The notes under the pieces are model-generated. The model saw only the letters and a list, made by a program, of their open reading frames with translations. It was not told where the DNA came from and did no database searches. A stretch of 64,000 nt of DNA from Antedon mediterranea (Eukaryota > Animalia > Echinodermata): the NCBI RefSeq assembly GCF_964355755.1, contig NC_092676.1, positions 6,859,888 through 6,923,887 on the forward strand, in the 5' to 3' direction. Of this stretch, positions 11,845 through 58,228 are shown piece after piece (within the stretch, counting starts at the first letter, position 1; each line of letters starts with the position of its first letter). The position numbers were made by a program, and so were the translations under genes.

Positions 11845-14800
11845 TTAAGCTTGCAATTGTAATTTCAATGTATTTCCTGAAAACATTCTCATCATTTCAT
11901 TCATTACATGACTTGTTAGTTTACAATCATGCATGTCAAGCTTAAGCAGCTTCGGAAACTTACTCAAAAAAGTACCTAGCAACGTACCATCTATGTCTCT
12001 GATATCATTGTTATAAATTGAAATCACTTGTAATTCTAACTCATCTCCTGAATACGCTCTCATCATCTTGTTCATTACGTCTCCTGATAGTTTACAATCA
12101 TACATATAAAGACCAGCAAGTTTAGGACACTTACTTAAGAAAGTACCAAGTAAAGCGCCATCAATATCACTGAAATCATTATTATAAATATTAAGTAATT
12201 GTAAGTCTGACTTATATCCTGAATACGCTCTCATCATTTCATTCATTACATTTCCTAATAGTTTGCATTCATGCATGTCAAGCTTAAGCAGCTTTGGAAA
12301 CTTGGTTAAGAAAGTACCCAGTAAACTACCTTCTATGTCTCTGATATCATTATTATACATTGAGATCACTTGTAAATCTAACTCTTCTCCTGAATACGCT
12401 CTCATCATCTTGTTCATTACGTCTCCTGATATTTTACAATCATACATATAAAGACCAGGAAGTTTAGGACACTTACTCAAGAAATTACCAAGTAAAGCAC
12501 CATCAATATCACTGAAATCATTATTATAAATATGAAGCAATTGTAAGTCTGACTTATCTCTTGAGTACGCTCTCATCATTTCATTCATTACATTTCCCGA
12601 TAGTTTGCAATCATGCATGCTAAGCTTTAACAGCTTTTGACACCTACTTAATAAAGTACCCAGCAACCTACCATCTATGTCACTGATATCATTATTATAA
12701 ATTGAGACCACTTGTAATTCTAACTCATCTCCTGAATACGCTCCCATCATCTGGTTCATTACGTCTCCTGATAGTTTACAATCATACATATAAAGACCAG
12801 GAAGTTTAGGACACTTACTTATGAAAGTACCAAGTAAAGCGCCATCAATATCACTGAAATCATTATTATAAATATGAAGCAATTGTAAGTCTGACGTATC
12901 TCTTGAATACGCTCTCATCATTTCATTCATTACATTTCCTGATAGTTTGCAATCATGCATTTCAAGCTCAAGCAACTTTGGAAACTTGGTTAAGAAATTA
13001 CCGAGTAAACTACCATCTATGTCTCTGATATCATTATTATAAATTGAGACCACTTGTAATTCTAACTCATCTCCTAAACACGCTCTCATCATCTTGTTCA
13101 TTACATTTCCTGATAGTTTGCAATCGTGCATGTCAAGCATAAGCAACTTTGGAAACTTGGTTAAGAAAGTCCCGAGTAAACTACCATCTATGTCTCTGAT
13201 ATCATTATTATAAATTGAGACCACTTGTAAATCTAACTCATCTCCTGAATACGCTCTCATCATCTTGTTCATTACTTCTCCTGATAGTTTACAATCATAC
13301 ATATAAAGATAAGGAAGCTTTGGGCACTTACTCAAGAAAGTACCAAGTAAAGCACCATCAATATCACTGAAATCATTATTATAAATATTAAGCAATTGTA
13401 AGTCTGACTTATCTCCTGAATACATTCTCATCATTTCATTCATTACATTTCCTGATAGTTTGCATTCATGCATGCTAAGCTTTAACAGCTTTTGACACCT
13501 ACTTAATAAAGTACCCAGCAACCTACCATCTATGTCACTGATATCATTATTATAAATTGAGACCACTTGTAATTCTAACTCATCTCCTGAATACGCTCTC
13601 ATCATCTGGTTCATTACGTCTCCTGATAGTTTACAATCATACATATAAAGACCAGGAAGTTTAGGACACTTACTTATGAAAGTACCAAGTAAAGCGCCAT
13701 CAATATCACTGAAATCATTATTATAAATATGAAGCAATTGTAAGTCTGACGTATCTCTTGAATACGCTCTCATCATTTCATTCATTACATTTCCTGATAG
13801 TTTGCAATCATGCATTTCAAGCTCAAGCAACTTTGGAAACTTGGTTAAGAAATTACCGAGTAAACTACCATCTATGTCTCTGATATCATTATTATAAATT
13901 GAGACCACTTGTAATTCTAACTCATCTCCTAAACACGCTCTCATCATCTTGTTCATTACATTTCCTGATAGTTTGCAATCGTGCATGTCAAGCATAAGCA
14001 ACTTTGGAAACTTGGTTAAGAAAGTCCCGAGTAAACTACCATCTATGTCTCTGATATCATTATTATAAATTGAGACCACTTGTAAATCTAACTCATCTCC
14101 TGAATACGCTCTCATCATCTTGTTCATTACTTCTCCTGATAGTTTACAATCATACATATAAAGATAAGGAAGCTTTGGGCACTTACTCAAGAAAGTACCA
14201 AGTAAAGCACCATCAATATCACTGAAATCATTATTATAAATATTAAGCAATTGTAAGTCTGACTTATCTCCTGAATACATTCTCATCATTTCATTCATTA
14301 CATTTCCTGATAGTTTGCATTCATGCATGCTAAGCTTTAACAGCTTTTGACACCTACTTAATAAAGTACCCAGCAACCTACCATCTATGTCACTGATATC
14401 ATTATTATAAATTGAGACCACTTGTAATTCTAACTCATCTCCTGAATACGCTCTCATCATCTGGTTCATTACGTCTCCTGATAGTTTACAATCATACATA
14501 TAAAGACCAGGAAGTTTAGGACACTTACTTATGAAAGTACCAAGTAAAGCGCCATCAATATCACTGAAATCATTATTATAAATATGAAGCAATTGTAAGT
14601 CTGACGTATCTCTTGAATACGCTCTCATCATTTCATTCATTACATTTCCTGATAGTTTGCAATCATGCATTTCAAGCTCAAGCAACTTTGGAAACTTGGT
14701 TAAGAAATTACCGAGTAAACTACCATCTATGTCTCTGATATCATTATTATAAATTGAGACCACTTGTAATTCTAACTCATCTCCTAAACACGCTCTCATC

Positions 14801-17800
14801 ATCTTGTTCATTACATTTCCTGATAGTTTGCAATCGTGCATGTCAAGCATAAGCAACTTTGGAAACTTGGTTAAGAAAGTACCGAGTAAACTACCATCTA
14901 TGTCTCTGATATCATTATTATAAATTGAGACCACTTGTAATTCTAACTCATCTCCTAAACAAGCTCTCATCATCTTGTTCATTACATTTCCTGATAGTTT
15001 GCAATCGTGCATGTCAAGCTCAAGCAACTTTGGAAACTTGGTTAAGAAAGTACCAAGTAAAGCGCCATCTATGTCTCTGATATCATTGTTATAAATTGAA
15101 ATCACTTGTAATTCTAACTCATCTCCTGAATACGTTCTCATCATCTTGTTCATTACGTCTCCTGATAGTTTACAATCATACATATAAAGACCAGGAAGTT
15201 TAGGACACGTACTTAAGAAAGTACCAAGTAAAGCGCCATCAATATCACTGAAATCATTATTATAAATATTAAGCAATTGTAAGTCTGACGAATCTCCTGA
15301 ATACGCTCTCATCATTTCATTCATTACATTTCCTGATAGTTTGCAATCATGCATGCTAAGCTTTAACAGCTTTGAAAACTTGGTTAAAAAAGTACCCAGT
15401 AAATTACCATCTATGTCTCTGATATCATTATTATAAATTGAGACCACTTGTAATTCTAACTCATCTCCTGAATACGCTCTCATCATCTGGTTCATTACGT
15501 CTCCTGATAGTTTACAATCATACATGTACAGTTCAAGCAGTTTGTGAAACTTACTCAAAAAAGTACCTAGCAACGTACCATCTATGTCTCTGATATCATT
15601 GTTATAAATTGAAATCACTTGTAATTCTAACTCATCTCCTGAATACGTTCTCATCATCTTGTTCATTACGTCTCCTGATAGTTTACAATCATACATATAA
15701 AGACCAGGAAGTTTAGGACACGTACTTAAGAAAGTACCAAGTAAAGCGCCATCAATATCACTGAAATCATTATTATAAATATTAAGCAATTGTAAGTCTG
15801 ACGTATCTCTTGAATACGCTCTCATCATTTCATTCATTACATTTCCTGATAGTTTGCAATCATGCATTTCAAGCTCAAGCAACTTTGGAAACTTGGTTAA
15901 GAAATTACCGAGTAAACTACCATCTATGTCTCTGATATCATTATTATAAATTGAGACCACTTGTAATTCTAACTCATCTCCTAAACACGCTCTCATCATC
16001 TTGTTCATTACATTTCCTGATAGTTTGCAATCGTGCATGTCAAGCATAAGCAACTTTGGAAACTTGGTTATGAAAGTACCGAGTAAACTACCATCTATGT
16101 CTCTGATATCATTATTATAAATTGAGACCACTTGTAAATCTAACTCATCTCCTGAATACGCTCTCATCATCTTGTTCATTACGTCTCCTGATAGTTTACA
16201 ATCATACATATAAAGATAAGGAAGCTTTGGGCACTTACTCAAGAAAGTACCAAGTAAAGCACCATCAATATCACTGAAATCATTATTAAAAATATTAAGC
16301 AATTGTAAGTCTGACTTATCTCCTGAATACATTCTCATCATTTCATTCATTACATTTCCTGATAGTTTGCATTCATGCATGTCAAGCTTAAGCAGCTTTG
16401 GAAACTTGGTTAAGAAAGTACCCAGTAAACTACCTTCTATGTCTCTGATATCATTATTATACATTGAGACCTCTTGTAATTCTAACTCTTCTCCTGAATA
16501 CGCTCTCATCATCTTGTTCATTACGTCTCCTGATATTTTACAATCATACATATAAAGACCAGGAAGTTTAGGACACTTACTCAAGAAAGTACCCAGTAAA
16601 GCACCATCAATATCACTAAAATCATTATTAAAAATATTAAGCAATTGTAAGTCTGACTTATCTCCTGAATACATTCTCATCATTTCATTCATTACATTTC
16701 CTGATAGTTTGCATTCATGCATGTCAAGCTTAAGCAGCTTTGGAAACTTGGTTAAGAAATTGCCCAGTAAACTACCATCTATGTCTCTGATATCATTATT
16801 ATACATTGAGACCACTTGTAATTCTAACTCATCTCCTGAATACGCTCTCATCATCTGGTTCATTACGTCTCCTGATAGTTTACAATCATACATGTACAGT
16901 TCAAGCAGTTTGTGAAACTTACTCAAAAAAGTACCTAGCAACGTACCATCTATGTCTCTGATATCATTGTTATAAATTGAAATCACTTGTAATTCTAACT
17001 CATCTCCTGAATACGTTCTCATCATCTTGTTCATTACGTCTCCTGATAGTTTACAATCATACATATAAAGACCAGGAAGTTTAGGACACGTACTTAAGAA
17101 AGTACCAAGTAAAGCGCCATCAATATCACTGAAATCATTATTATAAATATTAAGCAATTGTAAGTCTGACGTATCTCTTGAATACGCTCTCATCATTTCA
17201 TTCATTACATTTCCTGATAGTTTGCAATCATGCATTTCAAGCTCAAGCAACTTTGGAAACTTGGTTAAGAAATTACCGAGTAAACTACCATCTATGTCTC
17301 TGATATCATTATTATAAATTGAGACCACTTGTAATTCTAACTCATCTCCTAAACACGCTCTCATCATCTTGTTCATTACATTTCCTGATAGTTTGCAATC
17401 GTGCATGTCAAGCATAAGCAACTTTGGAAACTTGGTTATGAAAGTACCGAGTAAACTACCATCTATGTCTCTGATATCATTATTATAAATTGAGACCACT
17501 TGTAAATCTAACTCATCTCCTGAATACGCTCTCATCATCTTGTTCATTACGTCTCCTGATAGTTTACAATCATACATATAAAGATAAGGAAGCTTTGGGC
17601 ACTTACTCAAGAAAGTACCAAGTAAAGCACCATCAATATCACTGAAATCATTATTAAAAATATTAAGCAATTGTAAGTCTGACTTATCTCCTGAATACAT
17701 TCTCATCATTTCATTCATTACATTTCCTGATAGTTTGCATTCATGCATGTCAAGCTTAAGCAGCTTTGGAAACTTGGTTAAGAAAGTACCCAGTAAACTA

Positions 17801-20800
17801 CCTTCTATGTCTCTGATATCATTATTATACATTGAGACCTCTTGTAATTCTAACTCTTCTCCTGAATACGCTCTCATCATCTTGTTCATTACGTCTCCTG
17901 ATATTTTACAATCATACATATAAAGACCAGGAAGTTTAGGACACTTACTCAAGAAAGTACCCAGTAAAGCACCATCAATATCACTAAAATCATTATTATA
18001 AATATGAAGCAATTGTAAGTCTGACTTATCTCTTGAATACGCTCTCATCATTTCATTCATTACATTTCCCGATAGTTTGCAATCATGCATGCTAAGCTTT
18101 AACAGCTTTTGACACCTACTTAATAAAGTACCCAGCAACCTACCATCTATGTCACTGATATCATTATTATAAATTGAGACCACTTGTAATTCTAACTCTT
18201 CTCCTGAATACGCTCTCATCATCTTGTTCATTACGTCTCCTGATATTTTACAATCATACATATGAAGACCAGGAAGTTTAGGACACTTACTTAAGAAAGT
18301 ACCAAGTAAAGCACCATCAATATCTCTGAAATCATTATTATAAATATTAAGCAATTGTAAGTCTGACTTATCTCTTGAGTACGCTCTCATCATTTCATTC
18401 ATTACATTTCCTGATAGTTTGCAATCATGCATGCTAAGCTTTAACAGCTTTTGACACCTACTTAATAAAGTACCCAGCAACCTACCATCTATGTCACTGA
18501 TATCATTATTATAAATGAAAAGCTCTTGTAATTCTAACTCATCTCCTGAATACCCTCTCATCATTTCATTCATTACTCCACCAGTTAATTTGCAATTCTG
18601 CATGTAAAGTTTAAGCAAATTCGAAGACCTGCTCAAATAAGTACCAAGTAAATCAGCATCAATGTCATGAATATCATTATTCCCAATGTTAAGCAATTGT
18701 AATTGTAACTCATCTGTATCTGCATATACTCTAATAATTTCATTAACTTTCTCCCCAGATAAATTGCAATTAAACAAATTAAGTATAAGAAGTTTGGGAC
18801 ACGTGCTCAAGTAAGTACCAAGTAAAGCACCATTAACGTCTCTGATGTCATTATTCCCAATATAAATCTCCTGCAATTCAAACTTAACTGCTGCACAAAC
18901 CCCTGCCATTTCATTAATTACGACACCTGATAGTTTACAATCATGCATGTCAAGCTTAAGCAACTTTGGAAACTTGGTTAAGAAATTGCCCAGTAAACTA
19001 CCATCTATGTCTCTGATATCATTATTATACATTGAGACCTCTTGTAATTCTAACTCTTCTCCTGAATACGCTCTCATCATCTTGTTCATTACGTCTCCTG
19101 ATATTTTACAATCATACATATAAAGACCAGGAAGTTTAGGACAATTACTCAAGAAAGTACCAAGTAAAGCACCATCAATATCACTGAAATCATTATTAAA
19201 AATATTAAGCAATTGTAAGTCTGACTTATCTCCTGAATACATTCTCATCATTTCATTCATTACATTTCCTGATAGTTTGCAATCATGCATGCTAAGCTTT
19301 AACAGCTTTTGACACCTACTTAATAAAGTACCCAGCAACCTACCATCTATGTCACTGATATCATTATTATAAATTGAGACCACTTGTAATTCTAACTCAT
19401 CTCCTGAATACGCTCTCATCATCTTGTTCATTACGTTTCCTGATAGTTTACAATCATACATATAAAGACCAGGAAGTTTAGGACACTTACTCAAGAAAGT
19501 ACCAAGTAAAGTGCCATCAATATCACTGAAATCATTATTATAAATATGAAGCAATTGTAAGTCTGACTTATCTCCTGAATAGGCTCTCATCATTTTATTC
19601 ATTACATGACCTGATAGTTTACAATCATGCATGTCAAGCTTAAGCAGCTTCGGAAACTTACTCAAAAAAGTACCCAGCAACGTACCATTTATGTCACTGA
19701 TGTCATTATTAGAAATTGAGACGACTTGTAATTCTAACTTATCTCCTGAATACGCTCTCATTATCTGGTTCATTACGTCTCCTGATATACTGCAATTATT
19801 CATTAGCAATATTAGTAACTTTACAGATTCACGCAAAAAGGTACCTATTAAAGTACCATTAATTTTACTGAAATCATTATTTCCAATATCAAGCTTTTGT
19901 AATTGTAATTTAAAATTGTCTACAGCATACGCTTTGATGATGTTATTCATTACGTGTCCTGTTATTCGGCAATTACTCATGCTAAGTGTAAGCAACTTAG
20001 GGGCCCTACACAAGAAATTACCAAGTGAAGAACCATCAACCTCTCTCATGTCATTATGTCCAATATAGATCTCTTGTAATTTCATCTTCCCGCACTCTCT
20101 GGTCATTTTGTTCATTACGTCACCTGATATTTTGCAATCATTCATAAGAAATTTACTCAGGTTAGGACACTTACTCAAGAAATTACCCAGTAAAATACCA
20201 TCAATGTCACTTATATCATTATTGTCAATAAAAAGACATTTCAATTGTAACTCTTTTGCTGCATATGTTTCCATCATTGTATTAATTATTTTACCTGATA
20301 ATTTGCAATGACCCAGGTCAAGTATTTGCAATTTAGGAGACTTCATTATTAAAGTACTAAGTAAATTACCATCAATGTCACTGATATCATTATTCCCAAT
20401 ATAAAATTCTCTTAATTCTATCGTATCTCTTTCATATCTGTTTATGATTTCGTTCATTATGCCACCAGTTAATTTGCAATCATGCATCACAAGCTTGGAC
20501 ATTTTAAGAGATTTTCCCAAAACAGTACCCAGTAAAGTACTATCGATGTTACTAATATCATTTTTCCTAATATTAAACTGTTGAAGTCGGTACTCTCTTT
20601 TTGCGTACACTCTGTTCATTTCATTCTTATCTGAATGATCCTCTATTTCATTCATTTTTAGCTTATTAGGTTTACTAAAAAATGTACCAATTGAGGTACC
20701 GTCAATTTTACTGATGTCAATTTTCTCCGCATTATTCGCTTGTAAATAGGTCTTATCTGATAGATTGAAATCATTGAGGTCAACTATGCTTAGCTTTGGG

Positions 20801-23270
20801 GAGGTACTCCAGAAATTACCCAGCAAAGTGCCGCCAGTTATGTCACATATATCTTTATTTCCAATATTAAGCTCTTGTAATTGTAACTCATTTCTCTCAT
20901 TCAATTCAATCATTAATGTATTCAGTACTTCACCTGATAGATTACAATAATGCATGTCAAGTACACTCAGATTAGGAGACTTACTCAAGAAAGAACCCAG
21001 TAAATTTGCATCGATATCACTGATATCGTTGTTTGCAATATCGAGCACTTGTAATTCTGACTTTGGATACTCTCTCATCATTTTATTCATAACGTCACCA
21101 GACAGTTCACAGTCATGCATGCCAAGTTTAAGCAGCCCAGGAATCCTAGTCAAGAACTTCCCTAATAAATTACCATCAATGCCACTGATATTGTTTTTCT
21201 CGATACAAATCTCCTGTAATTTTAACTCATTTCCTTTATACGCGCATATCATTTCATTCAATGTGTGCCCCGATAGTGCGCAGTCATGCACGTCGAGTGT
21301 TAAAAGCTTAGGAATTGTGCTAAAAACGTTACCCAGTAACGTACCCTTTACGTCACTGAGATTATTTTTTGCTATATTAAGCATAAATATTTCCATACTT
21401 TCTTTACAGTACGTACTAATGTCATTCATTAGTTTACCTGAAAGATTACAATCGATCATATCAAATGACAGGTAGAAATTTACCGACGTCATTAATTCAT
21501 GAAGTAATTTGGCATCAATCCCATTGAGATTATTTTCGCTGATTATGAAACGGTTAAAATTCAGCTCACCGCCCATTTTAGACCATTCTGTAATCATAAC
21601 ATTCATTGCACCACCTGTTAGATTGTAATTATGTAAGTCAAGTGTATGCGTACAAAAATATACAATGTGTGCAAGGACATTTCCTCTACTATCAACAGAT
21701 AATGTATTACAAAATGTTCTCAAATCAAGTTCATTAAGATTCAAGATACTGAGTTGCATTACACGATCTATAAAATGCTCGCCAACAACAGCTAAATTTG
21801 AATTAAAGTAATCAATACATGCTTTTAATGATTTTAATACATCTGTGTATTGGTTTACTTTTGTGGGAATTTGGATTAAGGCATGTTTCACTTTTCCCCA
21901 ATGTTTATCGTTAACAAATTTCAAAAAATGATGTATCAAAGGACGATACGTTGATAAGTTATCTGTAACCCAATGCTGTAGTAATTTATCTGCATCAGCA
22001 CCAAGAAATTCAACTGCAAATATATATGCACTAATAAGATATTTAGATTTTTTTACATCGGTTGTACATTCATTTATCATATCTCCTCGTTCACAAAGTT
22101 TGTAAATATAAAATCCTACTAGTGATTCCAGTATTGATTTGTGTGTTGGCATGTAAATTTCAGGCTCCGAGTCAGATCTTAAAAGTGATGGTATTCTACA
22201 AACAAATCCTAGTTTAAATGCCAGCTTAACTAAATCATCTTCATCGTTCTTTTCAATTGAAAGTTGATTTTTTTTCAGGCTACTATACATACATTCTCCT
22301 AAGAACATCATAGCATCTACATACTTTTCTGGAATTTTTTCAAATATAGCAATTTTTTTTTGCTGTATCCCATTTTTTTTAATGTAATGATTCAGAATAC
22401 AACGGAAAATTTCTTTAAAGAGGTCAGCATTATTCGAAGGAAGGCGTCGTTCATCTTCCCAAATAATACAAATTGAGAGTAGAAACATAGGGTTTTTGCA
22501 CAATTCATTATGTTGCATCTCTGATACATTCTGGTCAATTTGTAATTCATGTATAAGGTCATGCCCCAATTCAGGGTTTTCAAAATAATTAAAATGGTTC
22601 TTAATATATTTCCCAATGCTATATCTGTTAAATCCTTTCACCGTCACATGTATATTACAGTCTTTTATGAATTCATCGATGTGTTCTGATCTTGAAGTAA
22701 GTAGCACAACACTCCTACCTAATAATTTTCCTCTAAAAAGATTTACCAAGCTTTTATTTTCAAAACGTAATTCATCTAATCCGTCTAATAACAGCACCAT
22801 TGTATCGTCATATTTCTTTATAAATTGTTTAATCAACTTTGGATTTTCTTCGAGACCTGTATCTAAATTGAAATCTTCCATATCAAGTTGTTCTTCAATC
22901 ACGTCAAAGATGCTGTTGTCTTTTTCAAAATCCCTTACGTTAAATAGAAAAACAATTTTACCTTTGAATGCGATAGGTTGCTTTTCAGTTGTTTTGTATG
23001 CCAAGTACCTTAACATGGTTGTTTTTCCGATGCCAGCCTCGCCTTCTATAAGAACTCTGCATCCAGGTGTGCTTTCTATAGTAGTTAATATGTCTGGCAA
23101 TGTTGTTGGTTGGTTTTTTCTTGTCTTATCATTTTCTATTATGAGGTCCAACTTGGTGAAGACGTCAATGTCGAGATTGTCCTTGCTATTCATTATTGAT
23201 GGTGTCAAATTTTTATACTCCTTCTGACACAGCATTTGTTGTCTTGCAAGCAGGTACTTTTCTATTTTTT
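11845..23270 (-). CDS. NLR-A terminal coding exon: NACHT NTPase + very long RI-type LRR array
   Basis: 3813-aa ORF; Walker A GEAGIGKTT, Walker B LLLDGLDE, LLTSR, LCKNPMFL, winged-helix THKSILE; 57-aa LRR pairs; phase-1 acceptor ttcatag|AA at 23270, conserved in the paralog. Confidence 0.95.
11850..19790 (-). repeat. Homogenised 171-bp coding minisatellite (~46 units) with 855-bp and 1368-bp higher-order repeats
   Basis: Diagnostic aagataaggaagctttgggcac at 13306, 14161 (+855 = 5x171), 16213 (+2052 = 12x171), 17581 (+1368 = 8x171). Confidence 0.95.
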
Positions 23271-23696
23271 CTATGAATATAAACAATTGAATTATGGCTG
23301 GGATTACATCACATTATATCACAGTATGCTTTGATAGTTATTGACATGATAATGTGAACTTTCTGACGAAGGTTTACATGGCGAGATTAAATGTTGATAT
23401 AAAGTTCACGGTACACCACCATAAAGGCCCTGGGCGTTTATTGGAGGGGCGTTTGTTCAGGCGTGAGTTTATTTGGGGTGTTTTAAATAAATACGTTAAT
23501 AATTATATTATTAGCAACAATTAATTCACTAATAAACAAAATGTTAAATTCCTACAGTAATATTACTCAAAATATAAAATAGCATTATTTAAATAATAAT
23601 TATTACTTATACAATGCTAGTAACCATCAATCACAACATCAACAACTGATATAAATACCGTCATTAGAATCGAGTGAATGAAATAATTTCTATCCC

Positions 23697-25891: not shown

Positions 25892-25936
25892 TTTCACCAG
25901 ATGCCTGTGGGGGTGTTACTGGATTTACTCCATTAT
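25892..25936 (-). CDS. NLR-A linker micro-exon 3 (45 nt, phase 1-1; DNGVNPVTPPQASGE)
   Basis: tttttttgtccag|AT...GAAA|gtatat; open, frame-preserving. Confidence 0.6.
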
Positions 25937-25954
25937 CTGGACAAAAAAACACCT

Positions 25955-26756
25955 TTTTAGTCGCGTGGACGCGACTCTATAGTTCACTATGTCGGTCGGT
26001 TGGTCGGTCTGTCTGTCTGTCTGTCGGTCTGTCTGTCGGTCCGGTATCACTATGCGTTTTATCGCTTTCTGACCTTATCTTGATATCAGTTTAATCTAGC
26101 TAGGTCAATTTTTCACAGTATTTTCCTTATGGCCAGGAATCGATGTGGTTATGTTTTCACGGTGCGCAATAAAACATTACGCGGTCTACGCACGATTTAA
26201 CGAAATCACGTTTGTAATCATATCTTCACAACCATGAATCACAATTAAATAAAATTTGGTACTCATAAATTTCAGGGCATAAATCATCATATGGCAATAC
26301 AAATACGTGCGTAGCGCATGTAACGCATGCGTACGCACGCTTAAAATTTTCAAATTTTATTTTCGATGAAATAAGAGTACGTTTCAGGCAATTTTAAGCG
26401 TTTACAAAATTGCCATGAGTGCGCATATTTTTGCACGTGCACTGCGCGTTAAATGTTATTGCGCACTCTTTTTGCCCGATTTCTGTTTTCTTGACTTACT
26501 TTTCAACTCGAAATCACGTTATACGAGCACGTCAAAAGTGACAGGCTACGCACGTGTAAATTAAAAAAATATAAATGTTTTTAAACATTTCAACATTTTT
26601 AAACATGTTCAGTAATTTCGGTCAGTATAGTTCACTATGTCGGTCGGTCGGTCTGTCTGTCTGTCTGTCGGTCTGTCGGTCTGTCTGTCGGTCTGTCTGT
26701 CGGTCCGGTATCACTATGCATTGTAGCACGCGACTTAATGGCTGTTGGCCTTGTTT
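25955..26756. mobile_element. Helentron-associated non-autonomous element (HINE/DINE-1-like), copy 1
   Basis: T-run insertion site, subterminal inverted repeats agtcgcgtg / cacgcgact, (GTCY/GTCG)n microsatellites, short 3' stem ggctgttggcc; no TSD. Confidence 0.75.
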
Positions 26757-27121
26757 CTTATTAGACAAGTTTATTTTAATAGATTCACTTGCAAGATTAA
26801 TATGCCATGATAGGTCTATACTAATATTAATAATACAATACTTAAATTGTTGTTAGAACCAGGTGATAAGGGTGTAATTTATTTTACAAATAAAGTGCAA
26901 TTATTTGTCTTCATTTGTTTGGTTCAATTCAAGTAATTTAGTTAATTATCACGTTTTTGCTCTCTTTGTGCTGCTACAATGTTATACTAGACAAAGTATA
27001 TTTTACAAATTTAAAATCATTTATTTTATCACAACTATGTATGACAAGCGTTTACATAATCTAAATGCATTCGTTTATTTAATTATTCAAACGTGTGTCT
27101 TTCTATAACTGTGTATGTTTT

Positions 27122-27910
27122 TTTTAGTCGCGTGGAAGCGACTCTATAGTTCACTATGTCGGTCGGTCGGTCTGTCTGTCTGTCGGTCTGTCTGTCTGTC
27201 GGTCCGGTATCACTATGCGTTTTATCGCTTTATGACCTTATCTTGATATCAGTTTAATCTAGCTAAGTCAATTTTTCACAGAATATTCCTTATGGCCAGG
27301 AATCGATGTGGTTATGTTTTCACGGTGCGCAATAAAAAATTACGCGGTCTACGCACGATTTAACGAAATCACGTTTGTAATCATATCTTAACAACCATGA
27401 ATCACAATTAAATAAAATTTGGTACTCATAAATTTCAGGGCATAAATCATCATATGGCAATACAATTACGTGCGTAGCGCATGTAACGCATGCGTACGCG
27501 CGCTTAAAATTTTCAAAATTTATTTTCGATGAAATAAGAGTACGTTTCAGGCAATTTTAAGCGTTTACAAAATTGCCATGAGTGCGCATATTTTTGCGCG
27601 CGCACTGCGCGTTAAATGTTATTGCGCACTCTTTTTGCCCGATTTCTGTTTTCTTGACTTACTTTTCAACTCGAAATTACGTTATACGAGCACGTCAAAA
27701 GTGACAGGCTACGCACGTGTAAATTAAAAAAATATAAATGTTTTTAAACATTTCAACATTTTTAAACATGTTCAGTAATTTCGGTCAGTATAGTTCACTA
27801 TGTCGGTCGGTCCGTCTGTCTGTCGGTCTGTCTGTCTGTCGGTCTGTTTGTCTGTCGGTCCGGTATCACTATGCATTGTAGCACGCGACTTAATGGCTGT
27901 TGGCCTTGTT
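27122..27910. mobile_element. HINE/DINE-1-like element, copy 2 (near-identical direct copy)
   Basis: Same structure as 25955-26756 with different flanks. Confidence 0.75.
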
Positions 27911-28011
27911 TTTAAATATATTTTGTCTATCTTATTTGTTAATAATCTAAATCTAAATGAAATACAAGACATTAGATTGCAACATCACGGTTTTCATTTT
28001 TTCTTAATTAC

Positions 28012-28065
28012 CTTTACTGGAACTAGTTGTTTCAGCTGCATCTTTTTCATTTTTCTTACTATCAT
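28012..28065 (-). CDS. NLR-A linker micro-exon 2 (54 nt, phase 1-1; DDSKKNEKDAAETTSSSK)
   Basis: tttgtttctag|AT...AGTAAAG|gtaatt; open, frame-preserving. Confidence 0.7.
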
Positions 28066-28393
28066 CTAGAAACAAATTGTTAATTATTTGTATATGATTA
28101 ATTATGATGAGTATTAAAATTAAAGTATGCATTAAGTAGATAGTAGAGGCTAAATAAGTTTTTTTTAAAGTCTTGGATTTTTATGGATCCCATAGCATGG
28201 ATGTTCATATATTTTTTATTAAACTAAAATAACATTTTGAACATATATTTTTATTTTTGTTTCTACAAATAATTTCATTATAAGGAATATTCTAAAAAGA
28301 AATATTTTAAATGCTTTATTCACGAATTTAGTATTTGACTATGACATGCACAAACTTTACGGTTGTCGAAATTATGATAATTTCATTATATAC

Positions 28394-28447
28394 CTTTACT
28401 CGTTGCTTTACCTTCATTGGCTTCAAGTTCTTTACTCTGATCAAGAT
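28394..28447 (-). CDS. NLR-A linker micro-exon 1 (54 nt, phase 1-1; DLDQSKELEANEGKATSK)
   Basis: tatttatttctag|AT...AGTAAAG|gtatat; same length and ends as micro-exon 2. Confidence 0.7.
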
Positions 28448-30636: not shown

Positions 30637-30706
30637 TTTACTGGGAGCTACTTGTTTGGAACTCATTGCTTCACCTGCATCTTTTTCATGTTCATAATAT
30701 TACCAT
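30637..30706 (-). pseudogene. Dead paralog of linker micro-exon 2
   Basis: HEKDAGEAMSSKQVAPSK resembles NEKDAAETTSSSK; acceptor is ttctaa instead of ttctag, donor replaced by the HINE remnant; flanking intron matches 28070-28330. Confidence 0.6.
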
Positions 30707-31116: not shown

Positions 31117-31645
31117 CTGTACTAAGTAGGCCGATTTCTTTCTGGGCTCGTTCCCCAAGAAGACTTGCAAACTCAGTTAACTCTTTTGGTAAAATGAGTC
31201 TCTTCTCCAACTCAAATACCACATCCCAGAGGCTTTTATGTGGATCTAGTCGATAATTTGCTGTAACCCTCCGTGTCGCAGCAGGAGATCCAGATTGTTT
31301 AACAGCCCGAAACAGTCGTTCTCGGTCTGGTTTCAACTTATTTTCACCAGTACATTTGATATTGTTATCTGTTATATACTGACGTACAAGATGTTCAGCA
31401 TCTTTTGGGCCGGTTAATCTGGTAATCTCCAACAAAAGGTTGACATCATTTGGTGTAATAACACCACAGCCACCTTCGCTATCGAGCTTGTTGAATAAAT
31501 CATGTGCAATGGTTTCTGCATCAGCAAGGTCTCCTAGTTGCAGATGATCACCTAGGCAAAATCTCAACAATTTGTAGTCTTCGCCTTCATAACACTTACT
31601 AAGTTGGGCTTTCAACCCTCTAAACTTACTCTCAAGGTCTGACAT
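31117..31645 (-). CDS. NLR-A first coding exon: tandem death-effector-domain-like (death fold) module
   Basis: FRGLKAQLS...DYKLLRFCLGD...HDLFNKLD...ITPNDVNLLLEI DED pattern plus second helical repeat; acceptor tttttgcag at 31666, phase-1 donor ACAG|gtatgt at 31117. Confidence 0.8.
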
Positions 31646-32305
31646 TATTCAAAACATGTGTTTGTCTGCAAAAACAATTTAATTTGAACATGTCGAATGT
31701 AATCAAGAATAAGTTTCATGTTGTATTTTTAATTTTGGCGGTTTATTGTGCGCTACTTATGGCTGTCTAATTGTATTTTACCGATGAGCTGGCTACAGAA
31801 TTAGAGTTAGAATTCTATTAGAGGAATATAAATATATATAATACAGGCCTAAACTGCTCTTTTTATATATAGCTTTAACCTTTAACACACCTCCTACAAT
31901 GCCCATTCCTACATTCACAAATTTTGCACTGAATAAACACACATTATAACGTTACAAATACAGTACTCAGTCACCAGTCACTGAACTGTACCGAGACCAC
32001 TACCTCGTGGTATTCCAATTTCAATGTTTCTTTTTTGTTGGACATTTTATTATCATATCATCAACCTGTGTTCTTTCACTAAGGACTTTTTTTTTTCAAT
32101 AGTGTGATCAACTGTATCGACTAATTGGCAAATATCTAAGAAACATGTTTCTTCGATCATTCTTCCTGCTCATTTAGAGATTCAATTCATTCATCAGTCA
32201 ATGATTGTTGGGCGATCTTATCTAAATTCTTATTAGTCTATATTTATTAATATTAATTTAAGCTGAATTGTTTAAACTAGATGGTACCATCTAGGTCGTT
32301 CCCAC

Positions 32306-45492: not shown

Positions 45493-46466
45493 TAGACTTG
45501 CCCCAAGTCTGTATTTATTGTCTTTTTTTATATTTATTTGTTTTTATTTCGACCGCGATTTTTCTCTGAAAATACAGACTTGTGAAACACGTATAGAAAT
45601 CGATTTGCAGACCGCAAACATCCGATAAGAATGACGTAGGTTATCATACCGTATTTGGCTATATGGGGCGGGCGGTATGTAAATATGGATTTCGAATCAA
45701 CCAATGATCATTTTGTTTCAGAATGAAAAAGATAGAGTACGTTCAGTGCTGAATGTACGATCGAGACTGAACAACTGTTGAAATATAAAATCGTGTTGCC
45801 AAGTTGTTTTGTTTATTAATTGTTTAGTCCTGGCCTAGGCCTCCTTCGTAGGGATACTCAACTCGTACGTATGACCTGCTAAATAGAACGCCAATAAGGT
45901 ACATACCACCACCGACCCGCACACAACAGGGCTACACCGGCACACAACAGGGCTACACCACCACAAAGAACAGGACAGGGTGGGAAATAAATTAAATTAT
46001 CTCCGCATAATAAATGATCCATTCAATGTTTGATTTGCGGAGAAGCTAGCCTATCATATCAAGACGAGTTTTCATGTTCTTGGGAAAAATCCCATCAAAT
46101 GTTTACCAGACTACTAGGCATATAAAATCATTTCTAGCTTTCAGAAACTTTCATCAATGTACCCAAGTACACATTGTCTAAACGTAATGTAGCGCATGCG
46201 CATCATCTTAGATGTTGAGTCTTTGAAATTCTGAAATATGAATATTAAAACAGTGTACGAGTGAGTAGCCAATCGCATGCAGCTGAAACTAGTCAACCGG
46301 ATAATCGTATGCACCAAGAATTCTTGGTGTCAAACCACGTGACTTGTGCGTGTTTCCCCAGACGGAGTATCCAAACTCAAGTAATACACGTATGAAACGC
46401 CATATGTGCAAAAATATTTATATTTTTACTAATATTAAGACAAAACTCCGTCTGGAGCCCAGACTA
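45493..46466. mobile_element. 974-bp non-autonomous DNA transposon, 9-bp TSD, TAG...CTA hairpin ends (AcademH-like)
   Basis: GTAAAGTTT at 45484-45492 and 46467-46475; ends tAGACTTgccccAAGTCT and (rc) taGTCTGGgctCCAGAC. Confidence 0.85.
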
Positions 46467-49400
46467 GTAAAGTTTAAGCAGCTTAGTGGATTTACTTAAG
46501 AAATTACCCAACAAATTGCCATCAATGTTTCTGATATCATTATTCGAAATAGCAAGTGATTGTAATTCTAACTGATCTCCTACATACAACCTCATAATTG
46601 TATTCATTACGTCACCCGATAGTTTACAATTGTCCAAGCGAAGAGTATGTAGATTACGCGACCTACTCAGGAAATTACCCAGTAAAGCACCATCAATGTC
46701 ACCGAAATTATTGTTATTAATATGTAGCTCTTGTAATTCCAACTGATCTCCTACATACAGTCTCATCATTTTATTTATTACGTCACCCGATAGTTTACAA
46801 TTATGCATGTAAAGTTTAAGCAGCTTAGTGGATTTACTTAAGAAATTACCCAACAAATTGCCATCAATGTTTCTGATATCATTATTCGAAATAGCAAGTG
46901 ATTGTAATTCTAACTGATCTCCTACATACAACCTCATAATTGTATTCATTACGTCACCCGATAGTTTACAATTGTCCAAGCGAAGAGTATGTAGATTACG
47001 CGACCTACTCAGGAAATTACCCAGTAAAGCACCATCAATGTCATCGAAATTATTGTTATTAATATGTAACTCTTGTAATTCTAACTGATCTCCTACATAC
47101 AGCCTCATCATTTTATTTATTACGTCACCCGATAGTTTACAATTATGCATGTAAAGTTTAAGCACCTTAGTGGATTTACTCAAAAAATTACCCAACAAAT
47201 TGGCATCAATGTTTCCGCCGATATCATTATTCGAAATAGCAAGTGATTGTAATTCTAACTGATCACCTACATACAACCTCATAATTTTATTCATTACGTC
47301 ACCCGATAGTTTACAATCGTCCAAGCGAAGAGTATGTAGATTACGCGATTTACTCAAGAAATTACCCAGTAAAACACCATCAATGTCACCGAACTTATTG
47401 TTATTAATATGTAGCTCTTGTAATTCTAACTGATCTCCTACATACAACTTCATCATTTTATTCATTACGTCACCCGATAGTTTACAATTATGCATATAAA
47501 GTTCAAGCAGCTTAGGAGATTTATTCAAGAAATTACCCAACAAATTACCATCAATGTTTCCAATATCATTATTTGCAATATCAATTAATTGTAACTTTGA
47601 CACATCAACTACATATACTCTCATCATTTCATTCAGTACATCACCAAATAGTTTACAATTATGCATGTAAAGTTTAAGCAGCTTAGGGGATTTACTCAAG
47701 AAATTACCCAACAAATTGCCATCAATGTTTCCGATGTCATTCTTCGCAATATTAAGTAATCGTAAATGTGGCACATCAACTGCATATACTCTCATCATTT
47801 CATTCATTACGTCACCTGATAGTTTACAATCATCCAATCGAAGAGTATGTAGATTACGCGACTTACTCAAGAAATTACCCAGTAAAGCACCATCAATGTC
47901 ACAGAAATTATTGTTATTAATATGTAGCTCTTGTAATTCCAACTGATCTCTTACATACAACCTCATCATTTTATTTATTACATCACCCGATAGTTTACAA
48001 TTATACATGTAAAGTTTAAGCAGCTTAGGGGATTTACTCAAGAAATTACCCAACAAATTACCATCAATGTTTCCGATATCATTATTCGCAATAGCAAGTG
48101 ATTGTAATTCTAAGTGATCTCCTACGTACAACCTCATCATTTTATTTATTACGTCACCCGATAGTATGCATTTATCCATATAAAGTTCAAGCAGCTTAGG
48201 AGATTTACTCAGGAAATTACCCAATAAATTACCATCAATGTTTCCGATATCGTTATTAGAAATAGCAAGTAATTGTAACTGTGACACATCAACTACATAT
48301 ACTCTCATCATTGTATTCATTACGTCACCTGATAGTTTACAATCGTCCATGCGAAGAGTATGTAGATTACGCGACTTACTCAAGAAATTACCCAGTAAAG
48401 CGCCATCAATGTCACTGAAATTATTGTCATTAATATGTAGCTCTTGTAATTCTAACTGATCTCCTACATACAACCTCATCATTGTATTTATTACGTCACC
48501 CGATAGTTTACAATTTTGCATATAAAGCTTAAGCAGCTTAGGAGATTTACTCAAGAAATTACCCAACAAATTACCATCAATGTTTCCGATAGCATTATTC
48601 GCAATATTAAGTAATTGTAACTGTGACACATCAACTACATATACTCTCATCATTTCATTCATTACATCACCCAATAGTTTACAATTATGCATGTAAAGTT
48701 TTAGCAGCTTAGGGGATTTACTCAAGAAATTACCCAACAAATTGCCATCAATGTTTCTGATATCATTCTTCGCAATATTAAGTAATTGTAACTGTGACAC
48801 ATCAACTACATATACTCTCATCATTTCATTCATTACGTCACCCGATAGATTACAATTATACATAGAAAGTTCAAGCAGCTTAGGAGATTTACTTAAGAAA
48901 TTACCCAATAAATTACCATCAATGTTTCCGATATCATTATTCGCAATATTAATTAATTGTAACTGTGAGACATCAACTACATATACTCTCATCATTTCAT
49001 TCATTACGTCACTTGATAGTTTACAATCATCCAAGCGAAGAGTATGTAGATTACGCGACTTACTAAAGAAATTACCCAGTAAAGCACCATCAATGTCACC
49101 GAAATTATTGTTATTAATATGTAGCTCTTGTAATTCCAACTGATCTCCTACATACAACCTCATCATTTTATTCATTACGTCACCCGATAGTTTACAATTT
49201 TGCATGCAAAGGTTAAGCAGCTTAGGAGATTTACTCAAGAAATTACCCAACAAATTTCCATCAATGTTTCCGATATCATTATTCGCAATAGCAAGTGATT
49301 GTAATTCTAATTGATCTCCTACATATACTCTCATCATTTCATTCATTACGTCACCCGATAGTTTACAATCGTCTAATCGAAGAGTATGTAGATTACGCGA

Positions 49401-52400
49401 CTTACTCAAGAAATTACCCAGTAAAGCACCATCAATGTCACAGAAATTATTCTCATTAATATGTAGCTCTTGTAATTCCAACTGATCTCTTACATACAAC
49501 CTCATCATTTTATTCATTACGTCACCCGATAGTTTACAATTATGCATATAAAGTTCAAGCAGCTTAGGAGATTTATTCAAGAAATTACCCAACAAATTGC
49601 CATCAATGCTTCTGATATCATTATTCGCAATATTAAGTAATTGTAACTGTGACACATCAACTGCATATACTCTCATCATTTCATTCATTACGTCACCCGA
49701 TAGATTACAATTATACATATAAAGTTCAAGCAGCTTAGGGGATTTACTCAAGAAATTACTCAGGAAATTGCCATCAATGCTTCTGATATCATTATTAGAA
49801 ATAACAAGCACTTTAAATTCTAACACATCTCCTGTATACGCCCTCATAAATCCATTCATCACATCACCTGATAGTCTACAATTGTGTAAGTCAAGAGTAT
49901 GTAGCTTAGGAGACTTACTCAAAAAAGTACCCAGTAAAGTACCATCAATGTTTTTGATTTCATTATAACCAATCGAAAAAACCTCCAATTGTAACTCACC
50001 GTTTGCATACACGCTCATCATTTCATTCAATTCCTTTCCTGATAGTTTACAATTTCTTACGACAAGTTCTTTCAGCTTAGTAGACGTATTCAGAAAAGTA
50101 CCCAATAATGCACCATCAATATTGTTATTCCTAATATCAATCACTTGTAACTCATCACCTACAAGCACTCTCATCATCTTGTTCATTATGCCCCATGGTA
50201 TTTTACAATTCTGCATGAAAAGTTTGACCTTGGGAGACTTACCCAAAAATTCACACAGTAAATTTCCATCAATGTCACTGATATCATTATTCCCAATATC
50301 AAGCATTTCTAATTGATCTCCTTCATATACCACCATCATGCTATTCATTACGTCACTGGATAGTTTGCAACCATGCAACGAGAGTTTACTAAGCTTAGGA
50401 CACTTACTCAAGAAAGCACCTAGTAAAGATCCATCAATATCACTGATATCATTGTTCTCGATCTTTTTTAGTTCTAACTCACTAAATGTGTCCAGTATCT
50501 TTTTATTTAACACATCATCTGGTATTTTACGATTACTTTTAAATTTAATCAGCTTTTGAGATTCAATGTCACTGTTAACATCATTTCTAAAATAAAGCCC
50601 CTGCAATTCCAACTCTTCTCCAGCATACACGCTGTTTTCCGCCTTCATTATGTCACACGATAATTTGTATTCATGTATGTCATGTATACGAAGCTTTAAA
50701 GAGTTAATTGATAAAACACTCAATAAATGCCTTTCATTGTCACTGCTATAATCATTTCCAATATCAAGCTCTTGCAATTCTGATATATTTTTTGTATACG
50801 ATCTAATTATTTCATTAATTAACTCACCGGTCAATCTGCAATTATGCATAAAGAGCTTACACAATCTAGGAGATTTACTCAAAAAAGAACCAAACTGAGA
50901 ACCATCAGTGTCACTTATAGTATTCTTCCCAATTCCAAGCTCCTGTAACTCATTTTCTCCATACACTTTCATCATTTCAGTCATAACTTCACCTGATAGT
51001 TTGCAATTGTACATGTACAGTTTAAGCAGCTGAGGGCATTTACTCAAGAAAGTACCTAGCAAAGTACCATCGATGTCACTGATATCATTATTCCCAATAT
51101 CAATCGCTTGTAAATGCCCATCCCCTACGTACCCTGTCATCATTTTGTTCATCGTCTCACCTGATAGTTTACAATTATGCATGCTAATGCTATGTAACTT
51201 ATGTGATTTACTCAAGAACGCACACAGTATAGTACCGTCGATGTCACTGATGTTATTATTCCCAATATCAATGGTTTGTAACTCATCTCCTGCATACACA
51301 CTCATTATTTTGTTCATCGTGTCCCCTGATAATTTGCAATCACGCATACAAATTTCAAGCAGCTTAGGAGACTTACTAAAGAAATTACCCATTGAGGTAC
51401 CATCAATGTCACTGATATCATTGTTTCCAATATCAATCACTTGTAATTCATCACTCTTATATACTCTGATCATTTCATTCAATATGCGTCCTGATAGTTT
51501 ACAATCACGCACGTCAAGTTTCAACAGCTGGGGAATCTTACTTAAGAAAGTACCCAGTAAAGTACCATCAATGTCGCTGAGATTATTTTTAGCGATATTG
51601 AGCATACTTATTGTTAGAATATCTCCATCATTACACTTACTGACTTCATTTATTATTTTACCTGATATATTACAATCAATCATTTCAAATGAAAGAGGAA
51701 AGGGAGACAACTTCAATAAAGTAAGCAGTAATTCAGGATTAATGCTGCTCAGATTATTTTTGCTGATAATGAGACTGTTTATTATCAACCCACCACCCAT
51801 GTTAGACCACTCTCTAACCATATCATTCATTACATCACCTGATAGATTGTAATTATGTACGTCAAGTGTGGGTGTAACAAAATATGCAATGTGCGCAAAT
51901 AATTTGCCTCTTTTTTCAATTGATAATGTATTAGACCATTTTCGCAAATCAAGCTCATTAATATGCATGTTACTGAGTTGACATATGCGATCTATAAAAT
52001 GCTCACCCACATCTAAATTTGGTTTTATGTAGGCAATACAATCATTAAATGAGTTTGATATAATATCGGTGTGTTGATTTAATTTTTCACTAACCATGTG
52101 ATGTCTTAAGGCTTTATTCACACTACCCTTATGTTGATCTTTAACACATGCCAAGTACTTGTGTATCAAAGGACGATATGTTGGTAAGCTACATGTAACC
52201 CAATACTGTAGTAGTTTATTTGCATCAGCACCAAGAAATTCTACTGCAAACATATTTGCCCTAATTAGATATGTGGAGTCTCTTAAATCTTTTATAAAAT
52301 CATTTGTCATATCTCCTTGTTCACAACGTTTGTAAACATAAAAACCTACTAGTGACTCCAGTATTGATTTGTGTGTAGGCATGTTAATCTCAGGCTCTGA

Positions 52401-53851: not shown

Positions 53852-53896
53852 CGTCATTAGAATCCCGTGGATGTGTTGCTCGATTAGCTGGAACAT
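53852..53896 (-). CDS. NLR-B linker micro-exon (45 nt, phase 1-1; DVPANRATHPRDSND)
   Basis: ttttctttaaag|AT...GACG|gtatgt; open, frame-preserving. Confidence 0.7.
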
Positions 53897-57370: not shown

Positions 57371-57415
57371 CGTCATAACTACCCTGATTAGGTAACGTTG
57401 AACTATCATAAAAAT
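57371..57415 (-). CDS. NLR-B linker micro-exon (45 nt, phase 1-1; DFYDSSTLPNQGSYD)
   Basis: ttttttttttacag|AT...GACG|gtatgtatac; same length and 3' end as 53852-53896. Confidence 0.72.
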
Positions 57416-57714: not shown

Positions 57715-58228
57715 CGGTACTTAGGCCCAGTACTTTCTGGGCTCGTTTCCCAAGAAGACTTGCAAACTCATTTAACTGGTCTGGTAAAATGCTTTCCTTC
57801 TCCAAATGAAATATTACATCCCAGAGACGTGTATAAGTAAACTTTTTAAGTTCATAATTTGCAGTAACTCTCTTTAATGCAGCAGGAGATTCAGATTGTC
57901 TAACAGCATTAAAGAGTCGTTTTCGGTCTGACGACAATTTATTTTCCTCGGTATTTGTAATATTGTTATCTTTCATGTACTGAGTTACAAGACGTTCAGC
58001 TTCTTTCGGACCTGTTAGTGTTGTGATATCTAACAAAATTTTGACATCATTATCTGAGATAACACCACGGTCACCAAGTGTATTGAATAAATCATGTCCA
58101 ATGAAAGTTTTATCTGTAAGGTTTTCTAGTGGTAAAATATCAAATAAGCAAAATTTCAGCAACTTGTAGTCTTCACCTTCATAATGCTTACTGAGTTCAG
58201 CTTTCAACTTTCTAAACTTGTCTGACAT
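57715..58228 (-). CDS. NLR-B first coding exon: tandem DED-like module
   Basis: MSDKFRKLKAELSKHYEGEDYKLLKFCLFD...HDLFNTL...ISDNDVKILLDI; paralog of 31117-31645; acceptor tttttgcag at 58242, phase-1 donor ACCG|gtaaat. Confidence 0.8.

What the first reader, a model, noticed from the sequence alone, without database searches (positions are those of the whole stretch)
25892..28447. DED-NACHT linker built from symmetric 45/54-nt phase-1 micro-exons
Seen: not in the ORF track, but NLR-A has exons 28447-28394, 28065-28012 and 25936-25892, and NLR-B has 57415-57371 and 53896-53852. All start AG|AT, end in phase 1, have lengths divisible by 3, are stop-free and encode polar low-complexity peptides. 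The DED donor and NACHT acceptor are also phase 1. Inference: any subset can be skipped in frame, giving a tunable spacer between effector and NTPase domains; Asp-rich junctions might be caspase sites (speculative).
Basis: partly seen in the sequence, partly recalled or inferred. Interest (0 to 1): 0.7.

Follow-up and report, generated by a model that had tools for sequence, protein, structure and literature searches.

The report
Mini-exon linker in feather-star NLRs
In two feather-star immune-sensor genes, the spacer between the death-signalling end and the ATPase core is encoded by tiny in-frame exons; two are shown to be spliced in and a third is skipped and likely decaying, so spacer length likely varies mainly by exon gain and loss between gene copies, a known pattern, rather than by free mix-and-match splicing.

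Summary
Three joints in one RNA-like run splice DED to 28447-28394 to 28065-28012 to NACHT exactly. 25936-25892 (A3) is left out there and in the RefSeq model. A3 is a homologue of the NLR-B exon 53896-53852 (28/45 in register), but its donor is weakened and a repeat sits 17 nt upstream of it, so it is likely dying. Two further dead copies lie in the same intron. In-frame variation is indicated only by predicted models: RefSeq uses a 36-nt form of the first exon, and 3 of 7 isoform-labelled family genes differ by whole linker units. Only one isoform assembled, so 'any subset can be skipped' is not shown. The caspase-site idea is unsupported. NLR-B exons were not tested on RNA. Best reading: a birth-and-death array of frame-neutral exons encoding a likely disordered tether, as in zebrafish NLR N-terminal repeats and human disordered symmetric exons. 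Real, but a new member of a known kind.

The parts
31117..31665 (-). NLR-A tandem-DED exon (coding from ATG 31645; phase-1 donor at 31117; 5' acceptor at 31665 predicted only)
   Evidence: ORF; Pfam DED E 3e-4, below gathering cut-off; model pLDDT 90.7 matches caspase-8 tDED, TM 0.72; donor used in X1
30652..30706 (-). A0: dead duplicate of A2 (acceptor AG changed to AA, net +1 nt)
   Evidence: 76% over 146 nt with A2 and its upstream intron; alignment; no joint
28394..28447 (-). A1: 54-nt phase 1-1 linker exon, with an in-frame internal donor at 28412 giving a 36-nt form
   Evidence: 54-nt form spliced in X1; 36-nt form in RefSeq model P0068
28012..28065 (-). A2: 54-nt phase 1-1 linker exon
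   Evidence: spliced in X1; present in P0068; 29/54 in register with A1
25954..27911 (.). two ~800-nt copies of a high-copy repeat element; the lower one ends 17 nt upstream of A3
   Evidence: 96% over 803 nt; very high contig depth; junction sequence
25892..25936 (-). A3: 45-nt phase 1-1 exon, homologue of B2, skipped in both available transcript sources; likely decaying or a minor cassette
   Evidence: 28/45 in register with B2, inner 25/40, shuffle P=3e-5; only 1 of 8 acceptors without a TRAY-type motif in 60 nt, donor AAA|gt; skipped
23659..23680 (-). A4: 3' relic of the B2 orthologue; acceptor half replaced by repeat DNA, nearest AGs give 31 or 37 nt (frameshifting)
   Evidence: 87% over 39 nt with B2 end and donor; alignment; sequence
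11845..23270 (-). NLR-A single NACHT-LRR exon (3807 aa plus stop), phase-1 acceptor
   Evidence: ORF; NACHT E 1.6e-19; identical to P0068 to the stop; acceptor used in X1
57715..58241 (-). NLR-B tandem-DED exon (coding from 58228; phase-1 donor)
   Evidence: ORF; Pfam DED E 6e-6; 67% identical to NLR-A DED; not tested on RNA
57371..57415 (-). B1: predicted 45-nt phase 1-1 linker exon (in-frame internal donor at 57383 would give 33 nt)
   Evidence: top of 1093 candidates; 24/45 in register with B2, P=0.001; not tested on RNA
53852..53896 (-). B2: predicted 45-nt phase 1-1 linker exon (in-frame acceptor at 53887 would give 36 nt)
   Evidence: homology to A3, A4 and B1; not tested on RNA
46464..53524 (-). 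NLR-B NACHT-LRR exon, cut short by a ~950-nt insertion at about 46466-45502
   Evidence: ORF; NACHT E 1e-18, LRR_4 above cut-off; sequence

Best explanation
The exons at 28447-28394 and 28065-28012 are real spliced exons that join a tandem-DED exon to the NACHT-LRR exon of a crinoid NLR, encoding a 36-residue polar linker that likely acts as a flexible tether and likely changes length mainly by duplication and decay of such exons between gene copies. Steps: (1) Shown: the DED exon ends and the NACHT exon starts in phase 1, so only 3n phase 1-1 exons can be gained or lost singly without a frameshift. (2) Shown by sequence homology: the small exons are duplicates of each other (A1/A2, B1/B2, A3/B2), and NLR-A carries two dead copies (A0, A4). 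(3) Inferred: A3 is being lost after a repeat displaced its branch-point region and its donor weakened. (4) Suggested by predicted RefSeq models only: some in-frame alternative donors and unit skips occur, tolerated because the region is disordered. (5) Inferred from fold likeness and NLR biology: on activation the NACHT oligomerises and the tether lets the tandem DEDs cluster and seed a caspase-8-type DED filament. Linker length is permissive (about 0-130 aa of polar linker across relatives) rather than a switch.
For: Joints 31117-28447, 28394-28065 and 28012-23270, all GT-AG on the minus strand, depth 9.65, one contig, in X1; no joint at A3 among the 5 listed. DNA-like runs of one sample have contigs running unbroken across 23270, A1, A2 and A3, which argues against a processed copy. 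In-register identities: A3/B2 28/45, B1/B2 24/45, A1/A2 29/54. Dead copies A0 and A4. A3 lacks a branch-type motif, 1 of 8 acceptors. Estimated linker length ranges 0-280 aa over 37 protein rows, isoform duplicates included. 7 of 39 relatives have tandem linker units with clade-specific periods of 15-27 aa. The N-terminus folds like caspase-8 tDED. General rule in human genes: disordered regions favour symmetric exons, often from internal tandem duplication (PMC3632108, abstract).
Against: Only one RNA-like run from one study was laid, as contigs, which drop rare forms, so constitutive inclusion is not shown. 3 of 7 isoform-labelled family genes differ by whole linker units, and RefSeq uses a 36-nt A1 where X1 uses 54 nt: splicing-level variation may be larger than this reading allows. 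A3 is still stop-free, 45 nt and bounded by AG/GT, as expected if it is still used at times. In human NLRP3 the linker exon does control oligomer state (PMC13226650, passages), so linkers need not be passive. NLR-B was not tested. Disorder is inferred from composition, not predicted with a tool.
Confidence: 0.65

Rival explanations
1. Regulated or stochastic combinatorial splicing: A1 (54 or 36 nt), A2 and A3 are cassettes, and their mixes tune the DED-NACHT distance and so the activation threshold.
For: All exons are frame-neutral. Two forms of A1 exist across sources. A3 is an intact exon homologue skipped in both sources. RefSeq pairs P0008/P0007 (67 aa), P0053/P0027 (21 aa) and P0055/P0033 (16 aa, DED joined straight to NACHT) differ only in linker units. 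Stochastic exon skipping regulates human NLRP3, in its LRR (PMC6642158, passages).
Against: X1 gave one unbranched form. RefSeq isoforms are predictions whose read support I could not see, and near-identical tandem units or paralogues can produce false skips. P0068 also has an odd 47-nt intron and an out-of-frame start in the DED exon, which lowers trust in it. These introns are essentially the only coding introns, so isoform differences must fall here. Natural skipping of the NLRP3 linker exon was not observed (PMC13226650).
Confidence: 0.2
2. The phase-1 slot is a plug-in site for functional modules (basic localisation motifs, pathogen bait, integrated domains), and the small exons are under selection for their motifs rather than for length.
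For: 9 of 39 relatives have a K-[KR]-x-[KR] cluster in the 90 aa before the NACHT exon. P0021 carries an OTU domain (PF02338) in this slot, and P0034 a segment I read as TIR-like by eye. Precedents: NLRP3 exon 3 polybasic linker (PMC13226650) and the NLRP1 protease-bait linker (PMC7857732, passages).
Against: 0 of the 5 window exons have such a cluster. None of A3, B1, B2 or Bx matches a relative's linker above shuffled controls (147 regions, P 0.25-0.91). No background rate was computed for the basic motif. These genes end in LRRs with no C-terminal CARD, so the NLRP1 degradation mechanism does not transfer. No selection test was possible.
Confidence: 0.12
3. Asp residues at exon junctions are caspase sites that release the tandem DED.
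For: 5 Asp in the ~50 residues around the NLR-A linker. The first junction has Leu at P4, Thr at P2 and Asp at P1, loosely like a caspase-8 site (motif recalled).
Against: 0 strict and 0 loose motif matches in both NLR-A forms. Strict motif in 1 of 37 and loose motif in 3 of 37 family linker rows. The NACHT-junction residue is E 18, D 10, other 14 of 42 genes. The Asp arises from donor G plus exon-initial AT.
Confidence: 0.03

Closest known systems
Zebrafish NLR-B30.2 N-terminal peptide repeats (Howe et al. 2016, PMC4852459; section 2.2 and passages read)
   Same: Expanded NLR family with variable numbers of short peptide units upstream of a large NACHT exon, each unit on its own exon, with duplication and exon shuffling
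   Different: Units are ~30 aa, with Fisna and B30.2 domains and exon-encoded LRRs. Here units are 12-18 aa, lie between a tandem DED and the NACHT, and all LRRs share the NACHT exon
Human NLRP3 exon 3 linker (PMC13226650; passages read)
   Same: A short in-frame exon encoding the death-fold to NACHT linker, absent in some NLRs and removable without loss of signalling
   Different: One 40-aa exon with a polybasic motif and a shown role in decamer cage formation; natural skipping not observed. Here several duplicated exons, no basic cluster, no function tested
Symmetric exons encoding disordered modules in human genes (Schad et al. 2013, PMC3632108; abstract read)
   Same: Phase-symmetric exons encode disordered regions, arise by tandem duplication, and when alternatively spliced tend to be the most disordered
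   Different: A genome-wide human statistic, not about NLRs or echinoderms
Invertebrate death-fold NACHT-LRR NLRs (sponge PMC3879445, holothuroid PMC8913654; passages read)
   Same: Death/DED N-terminus; NACHT and LRRs on one exon as in sponge clade C; lineage-specific expansion
   Different: The passages read do not describe linker mini-exons or crinoid tandem-DED NLRs with multi-thousand-residue LRR exons
Schistosome micro-exon genes (PMC10526429; passages read)
   Same: Short, mostly 3n exons among long introns, linked to alternative splicing
   Different: 10-20 exons, mostly 15 nt, form the whole secreted protein. Here 2-3 exons of 45-54 nt form a linker in a cytosolic receptor

Membership tests
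Metazoan tripartite NLR | NACHT NTPase domain | tested here: met
   PF05729 70.8 and 68.2 bits against cut-off 26.7
Metazoan tripartite NLR | C-terminal LRRs | tested here: met
   LRR_4 31.6 bits in B (cut-off 27), 23.8 in A (below cut-off; only first 800 aa scanned); long repeat arrays to the ORF ends
Metazoan tripartite NLR | N-terminal death-fold effector | tested here: met
   Pfam DED is below the gathering score, but the pLDDT 90.7 model's listed PDB matches are caspase-8, cFLIP and vFLIP tandem DEDs (plus one PEA-15 complex); best TM 0.72, E 6e-3
Metazoan tripartite NLR | Ligand-triggered oligomerisation and caspase recruitment | not testable with these tools
   inferred from family knowledge
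Microexons (recalled size limits of 27 nt or 51 nt) | Exon length under the limit | tested here: inconclusive
   0 of 5 are 27 nt or less; 3 of 5 (45 nt) are 51 nt or less; the two RNA-confirmed exons are 54 nt
Alternatively spliced cassette-exon array | More than one inclusion pattern in transcripts of the same gene | tested here: inconclusive
   One form in X1; a 36-nt A1 only in a predicted model; skips in predicted isoforms of 3 of 7 related genes
Schistosome micro-exon genes | Protein built largely from 10-20 very short exons, secreted | tested here: not met
   2-3 small exons make about 1% of a multi-thousand-residue protein
Zebrafish NLR-B30.2 family | Fisna and B30.2 domains, LRRs on separate exons | tested here: not met
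   No Fisna hit; LRRs are in the NACHT exon and run to the stop
NLRP3-type linker exon | Polybasic motif in the linker exon | tested here: not met
   0 of 5 window exons match K-[KR]-x-[KR]
NLRP1-type protease tripwire | C-terminal effector released after linker cleavage | tested here: not met
   Both ORFs end in LRR repeats and the effector is N-terminal (read by eye; C-termini not scanned with Pfam)

The most novel reading that the evidence does not exclude
Crinoid tandem-DED NLRs use the phase-1 slot between effector and NACHT as a splice-programmable cassette. In-frame choice of small exons and internal donors, seen in predicted isoforms of 3 of 7 relatives and as 54 versus 36 nt in NLR-A, would set the reach or localisation of the DEDs and so the threshold for seeding a caspase-8-type filament, cell by cell. 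This would be a natural version of the engineered NLRP3 linker-exon deletion.
Probability: 0.17. Interest if true: 0.65.

Novelty: new member of a known kind. Interest (0 to 1): 0.35.

Why it matters
It gives an RNA-checked exon structure for a crinoid NLR linker and catches exon birth and death in one intron (two live exons, one skipped, two dead). It also flags a RefSeq model that differs from the assembled RNA. If linker splicing proved regulated, these genes would be a natural test of whether death-fold to NACHT spacing sets NLR activation, which has been probed in NLRP3 only by engineered or forced exon skipping. As it stands the pattern matches what is described for zebrafish NLRs and for disordered symmetric exons in general.

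Tried and rejected
No whole genome is held for this window, so no genome-wide exon census was possible. No run on record as RNA was listed; X1 is a guessed RNA run that also holds intron-lying contigs at depth about 4.5. The first read-laying showed only 15 of 200 joints, dominated by repeats; it was repeated on X1 alone, leaving no call for NLR-B. A search for short transcript-derived proteins spanning the NLR-B junction found none among 16 candidates. Exact look-up of 6 single-exon versions of A and B found 0 of 6, so no NLR-B model was seen. Peptide matching of A3, B1, B2 and Bx to 147 post-DED regions gave nothing above shuffles; the resemblance of B2/A3 to the 13-aa linker of P0054 is by eye only and not counted. 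A processed pseudogene as source of the spliced contig was rejected because DNA-like contigs cross the exon ends unbroken. Bx (54589-54561) has strong splice sites but is 29 nt, so it was not filed as a linker exon. The extra candidate 55637-55593 has a weak donor and sits beside repeats; left as likely chance. The tree is the quick version, the careful search did not finish; 9 proteins were left out (8 isoform duplicates and P0001). Literature searches listed no paper on crinoid NLR linker exons; the library lacks most subscription journals, and no supplements were read. Our-findings look-ups by place and by the full word set were empty.

Full report
What the window holds. Two paralogous genes on the minus strand, NLR-A and NLR-B, each have an N-terminal domain exon and one very long NACHT-LRR exon (ORFs 11845-23313 and 46464-53558). 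Pfam gives NACHT well above cut-off and DED below cut-off for both. A model of the 176-residue N-terminus (pLDDT 90.7) matches tandem DEDs of caspase-8, cFLIP and vFLIP (best TM 0.72, E 6e-3), so the effector is a tandem DED. Relatives are crinoid RefSeq proteins. P0068, an Antedon mediterranea RefSeq model, is identical to NLR-A from the NACHT exon to the stop. NLR-A and NLR-B are sisters in a quick tree (SH-aLRT 98).

Observation. All 5 candidates are at the stated coordinates with AG|AT starts, 45 or 54 nt, GT donors and no stop in phase 1. The DED donors and NACHT acceptors are phase 1. A strict filter finds more such candidates than Markov-resampled introns (A: 2 versus 0.27, P=0.023; B: 3 versus 0.19, P=0.003; none on the opposite strand). 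The filter was set after the fact, missed A2 and caught one extra weak candidate.

RNA test. No run on record as RNA holds the gene; X1 is a guessed RNA run kept as contigs. Laid on NLR-A, X1 lists 5 joints in all. Three are 31117 to 28447, 28394 to 28065 and 28012 to 23270, each GT-AG on the minus strand, each in one contig at depth 9.65. That is the depth of a 463-nt contig whose first 287 nt end exactly at the NACHT acceptor. I infer from depth and length that they are one contig: DED, A1, A2, NACHT. The other two joints have non-splice ends in repeats. No joint touches A3. Three runs of one other sample cover introns evenly and have contigs running unbroken across 23270, A1, A2 and A3, so the joined form is not a genomic retrocopy in that sample.

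Second source. The RefSeq model P0068 also includes A1 and A2 and skips A3, but it uses an internal in-frame donor of A1 at 28412, giving 36 nt. I could not see its read support. The same model has an out-of-frame start at 31503 and a 47-nt intron inside the DED exon, whereas the uninterrupted ORF folds as a complete tandem DED, so the model is not fully trustworthy.

The exons are a family of duplicates. Ungapped in-register identity is 28/45 for A3 with B2 (inner 25/40, shuffle P=3e-5; 2 of 127,912 window positions reach it, one being A3 itself), 24/45 for B1 with B2 (P=0.001) and 29/54 for A1 with A2 (P=0.004); A3 with B1 is 19/45 (P=0.014). A3 is therefore a true exon homologue, not a chance string. 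However, its donor reads AAA|gt where B2 has ACG|gt. An ~800-nt repeat ends 17 nt upstream of it, and it is the only one of 8 acceptors with no TRAY-type motif within 60 nt (motif recalled). A0 (30706-30652) is a duplicate of A2 with its acceptor lost and a net 1-nt shift. A4 (23680-23659) is the 3' end and donor of the B2 orthologue (87% over 39 nt), with its acceptor half replaced by repeat DNA. NLR-A thus shows two live, one skipped and two dead small exons.

Family view. Estimated linker length runs from 0 to 280 aa over 37 protein rows (median 58; isoform duplicates included, ends approximate). The longest contain inserted domains, for example OTU in P0021. 7 of 39 relatives have tandem linker units with periods of 15-27 aa that differ between clades. 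I looked up 10 of the 46 first hits, chosen for multi-member clusters or isoform labels. They hold 7 isoform-labelled genes. Three differ only by in-frame loss of linker units (67, 21 and 16 aa), one by a single linker residue, two at the N-terminus and one inside the NACHT. These are predicted models, their exon boundaries are inferred from protein, and the linker introns are almost the only coding introns, so some concentration there is expected.

Caspase idea. Neither NLR-A form matches a strict or loose recalled caspase motif. In family linker rows 1 of 37 match the strict and 3 of 37 the loose motif. The residue at the NACHT junction is Asp in 10 of 42 genes and Glu in 18. The Asp at AT-starting exons follows from the split codon G|AT. 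Not supported.

Mechanism. Shown: A1 and A2 are spliced in, and the exons arise by duplication and die by point mutation or repeat insertion. Following from the gene structure: with phase-1 ends on both sides, only 3n phase 1-1 exons can come and go singly, so symmetry is a filter and not proof of regulated skipping. Inferred: the polar 30-36-residue linker is a flexible tether that lets tandem DEDs cluster on an oligomerised NACHT and seed a caspase-8-type filament; its length is permissive and drifts between paralogues, with some tolerated in-frame splice variation (0.65). Rivals: regulated combinatorial splicing (0.2), motif or bait cassettes (0.12), caspase sites (0.03).

Comparison with what is known. 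Zebrafish NLR-B30.2 genes have ~30-aa N-terminal repeats, each on its own exon, with shuffling (PMC4852459, section 2.2 and passages). Human NLRP3 has one 40-aa linker exon whose deletion abolishes the decamer cage but not signalling, and whose natural skipping was not observed (PMC13226650, passages); NLRP3 LRR exon 5 is stochastically skipped (PMC6642158, passages). Symmetric exons encoding disordered, tandemly duplicated modules are a general feature of human genes (PMC3632108, abstract). Schistosome MEGs (PMC10526429, passages) and the NLRP1 tripwire (PMC7857732, passages) fail membership. Death/DED NLRs are known in echinoderms and sponges (PMC8913654, PMC3879445, passages). Nine literature searches listed nothing on crinoid NLR linker exons; coverage is partial and no supplements were read. 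Unchecked notes of this scan report similar small-exon linkers in ascidian and shark NLRs and a one-exon disordered linker in a sea-urchin NLR. They suggest the design recurs; I did not test them.

Verdict. Observation confirmed, interpretation partly supported. A real, partly RNA-verified mini-exon linker undergoing birth and death; tunable combinatorial skipping remains possible but unshown. New member of a known kind, interest 0.35.

Noticed in passing
window 46466-45502 (minus strand): A ~950-nt insertion interrupts the NLR-B LRR exon and supplies a stop; further LRRs continue at about 45500-44746 and then decay, so NLR-B is truncated in this haplotype.
   Followed up: partly
window 11845-23270 and 46464-53524: Single coding exons of 11.4 kb and 7.1 kb with long, near-identical LRR blocks (about 3800 and 2350 aa), suggesting recent intra-exon repeat expansion.
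   Followed up: no
window 31473-31427: RefSeq model P0068 places a 47-nt intron and an out-of-frame start (31503) inside the DED exon, removing the first DED; probably a model error, read support unseen.
   Followed up: partly
window 54589-54561 (minus strand): A 29-nt stretch with strong acceptor and donor in the NLR-B linker intron (4th of 1093 candidates); inclusion alone would shift the frame, so a possible poison exon or chance.
   Followed up: partly
P0021, P0034, P0026, P0046 (relatives): Extra domains sit at or near the DED-NACHT slot in relatives: OTU (PF02338) in P0021, a TIR-like segment by eye in P0034, five tandem-DED pairs in P0026, a hydrophobic stretch plus an FN3-like segment by eye in P0046. 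All are predicted models.
   Followed up: no
P0058, P0116, P0119, P0122: The same tandem-DED module occurs in non-NLR proteins: before a P-loop GTPase-like segment, before caspase-like segments and before a TIR-like segment (read by eye), suggesting a lineage-expanded DED signalling network that could supply the NLR partners.
   Followed up: no
P0029 versus P0054: Predicted isoforms of one gene differ by an alternative N-terminus that drops the tandem DED but keeps the 13-aa linker unit: a possible effector-less NLR form.
   Followed up: no
window 25389-25554 and 54019-55159: A shared repeat relic (about 80% identity) lies in both linker introns, upstream of A4 and B2, supporting A4 as the positional orthologue of B2.
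   Followed up: partly
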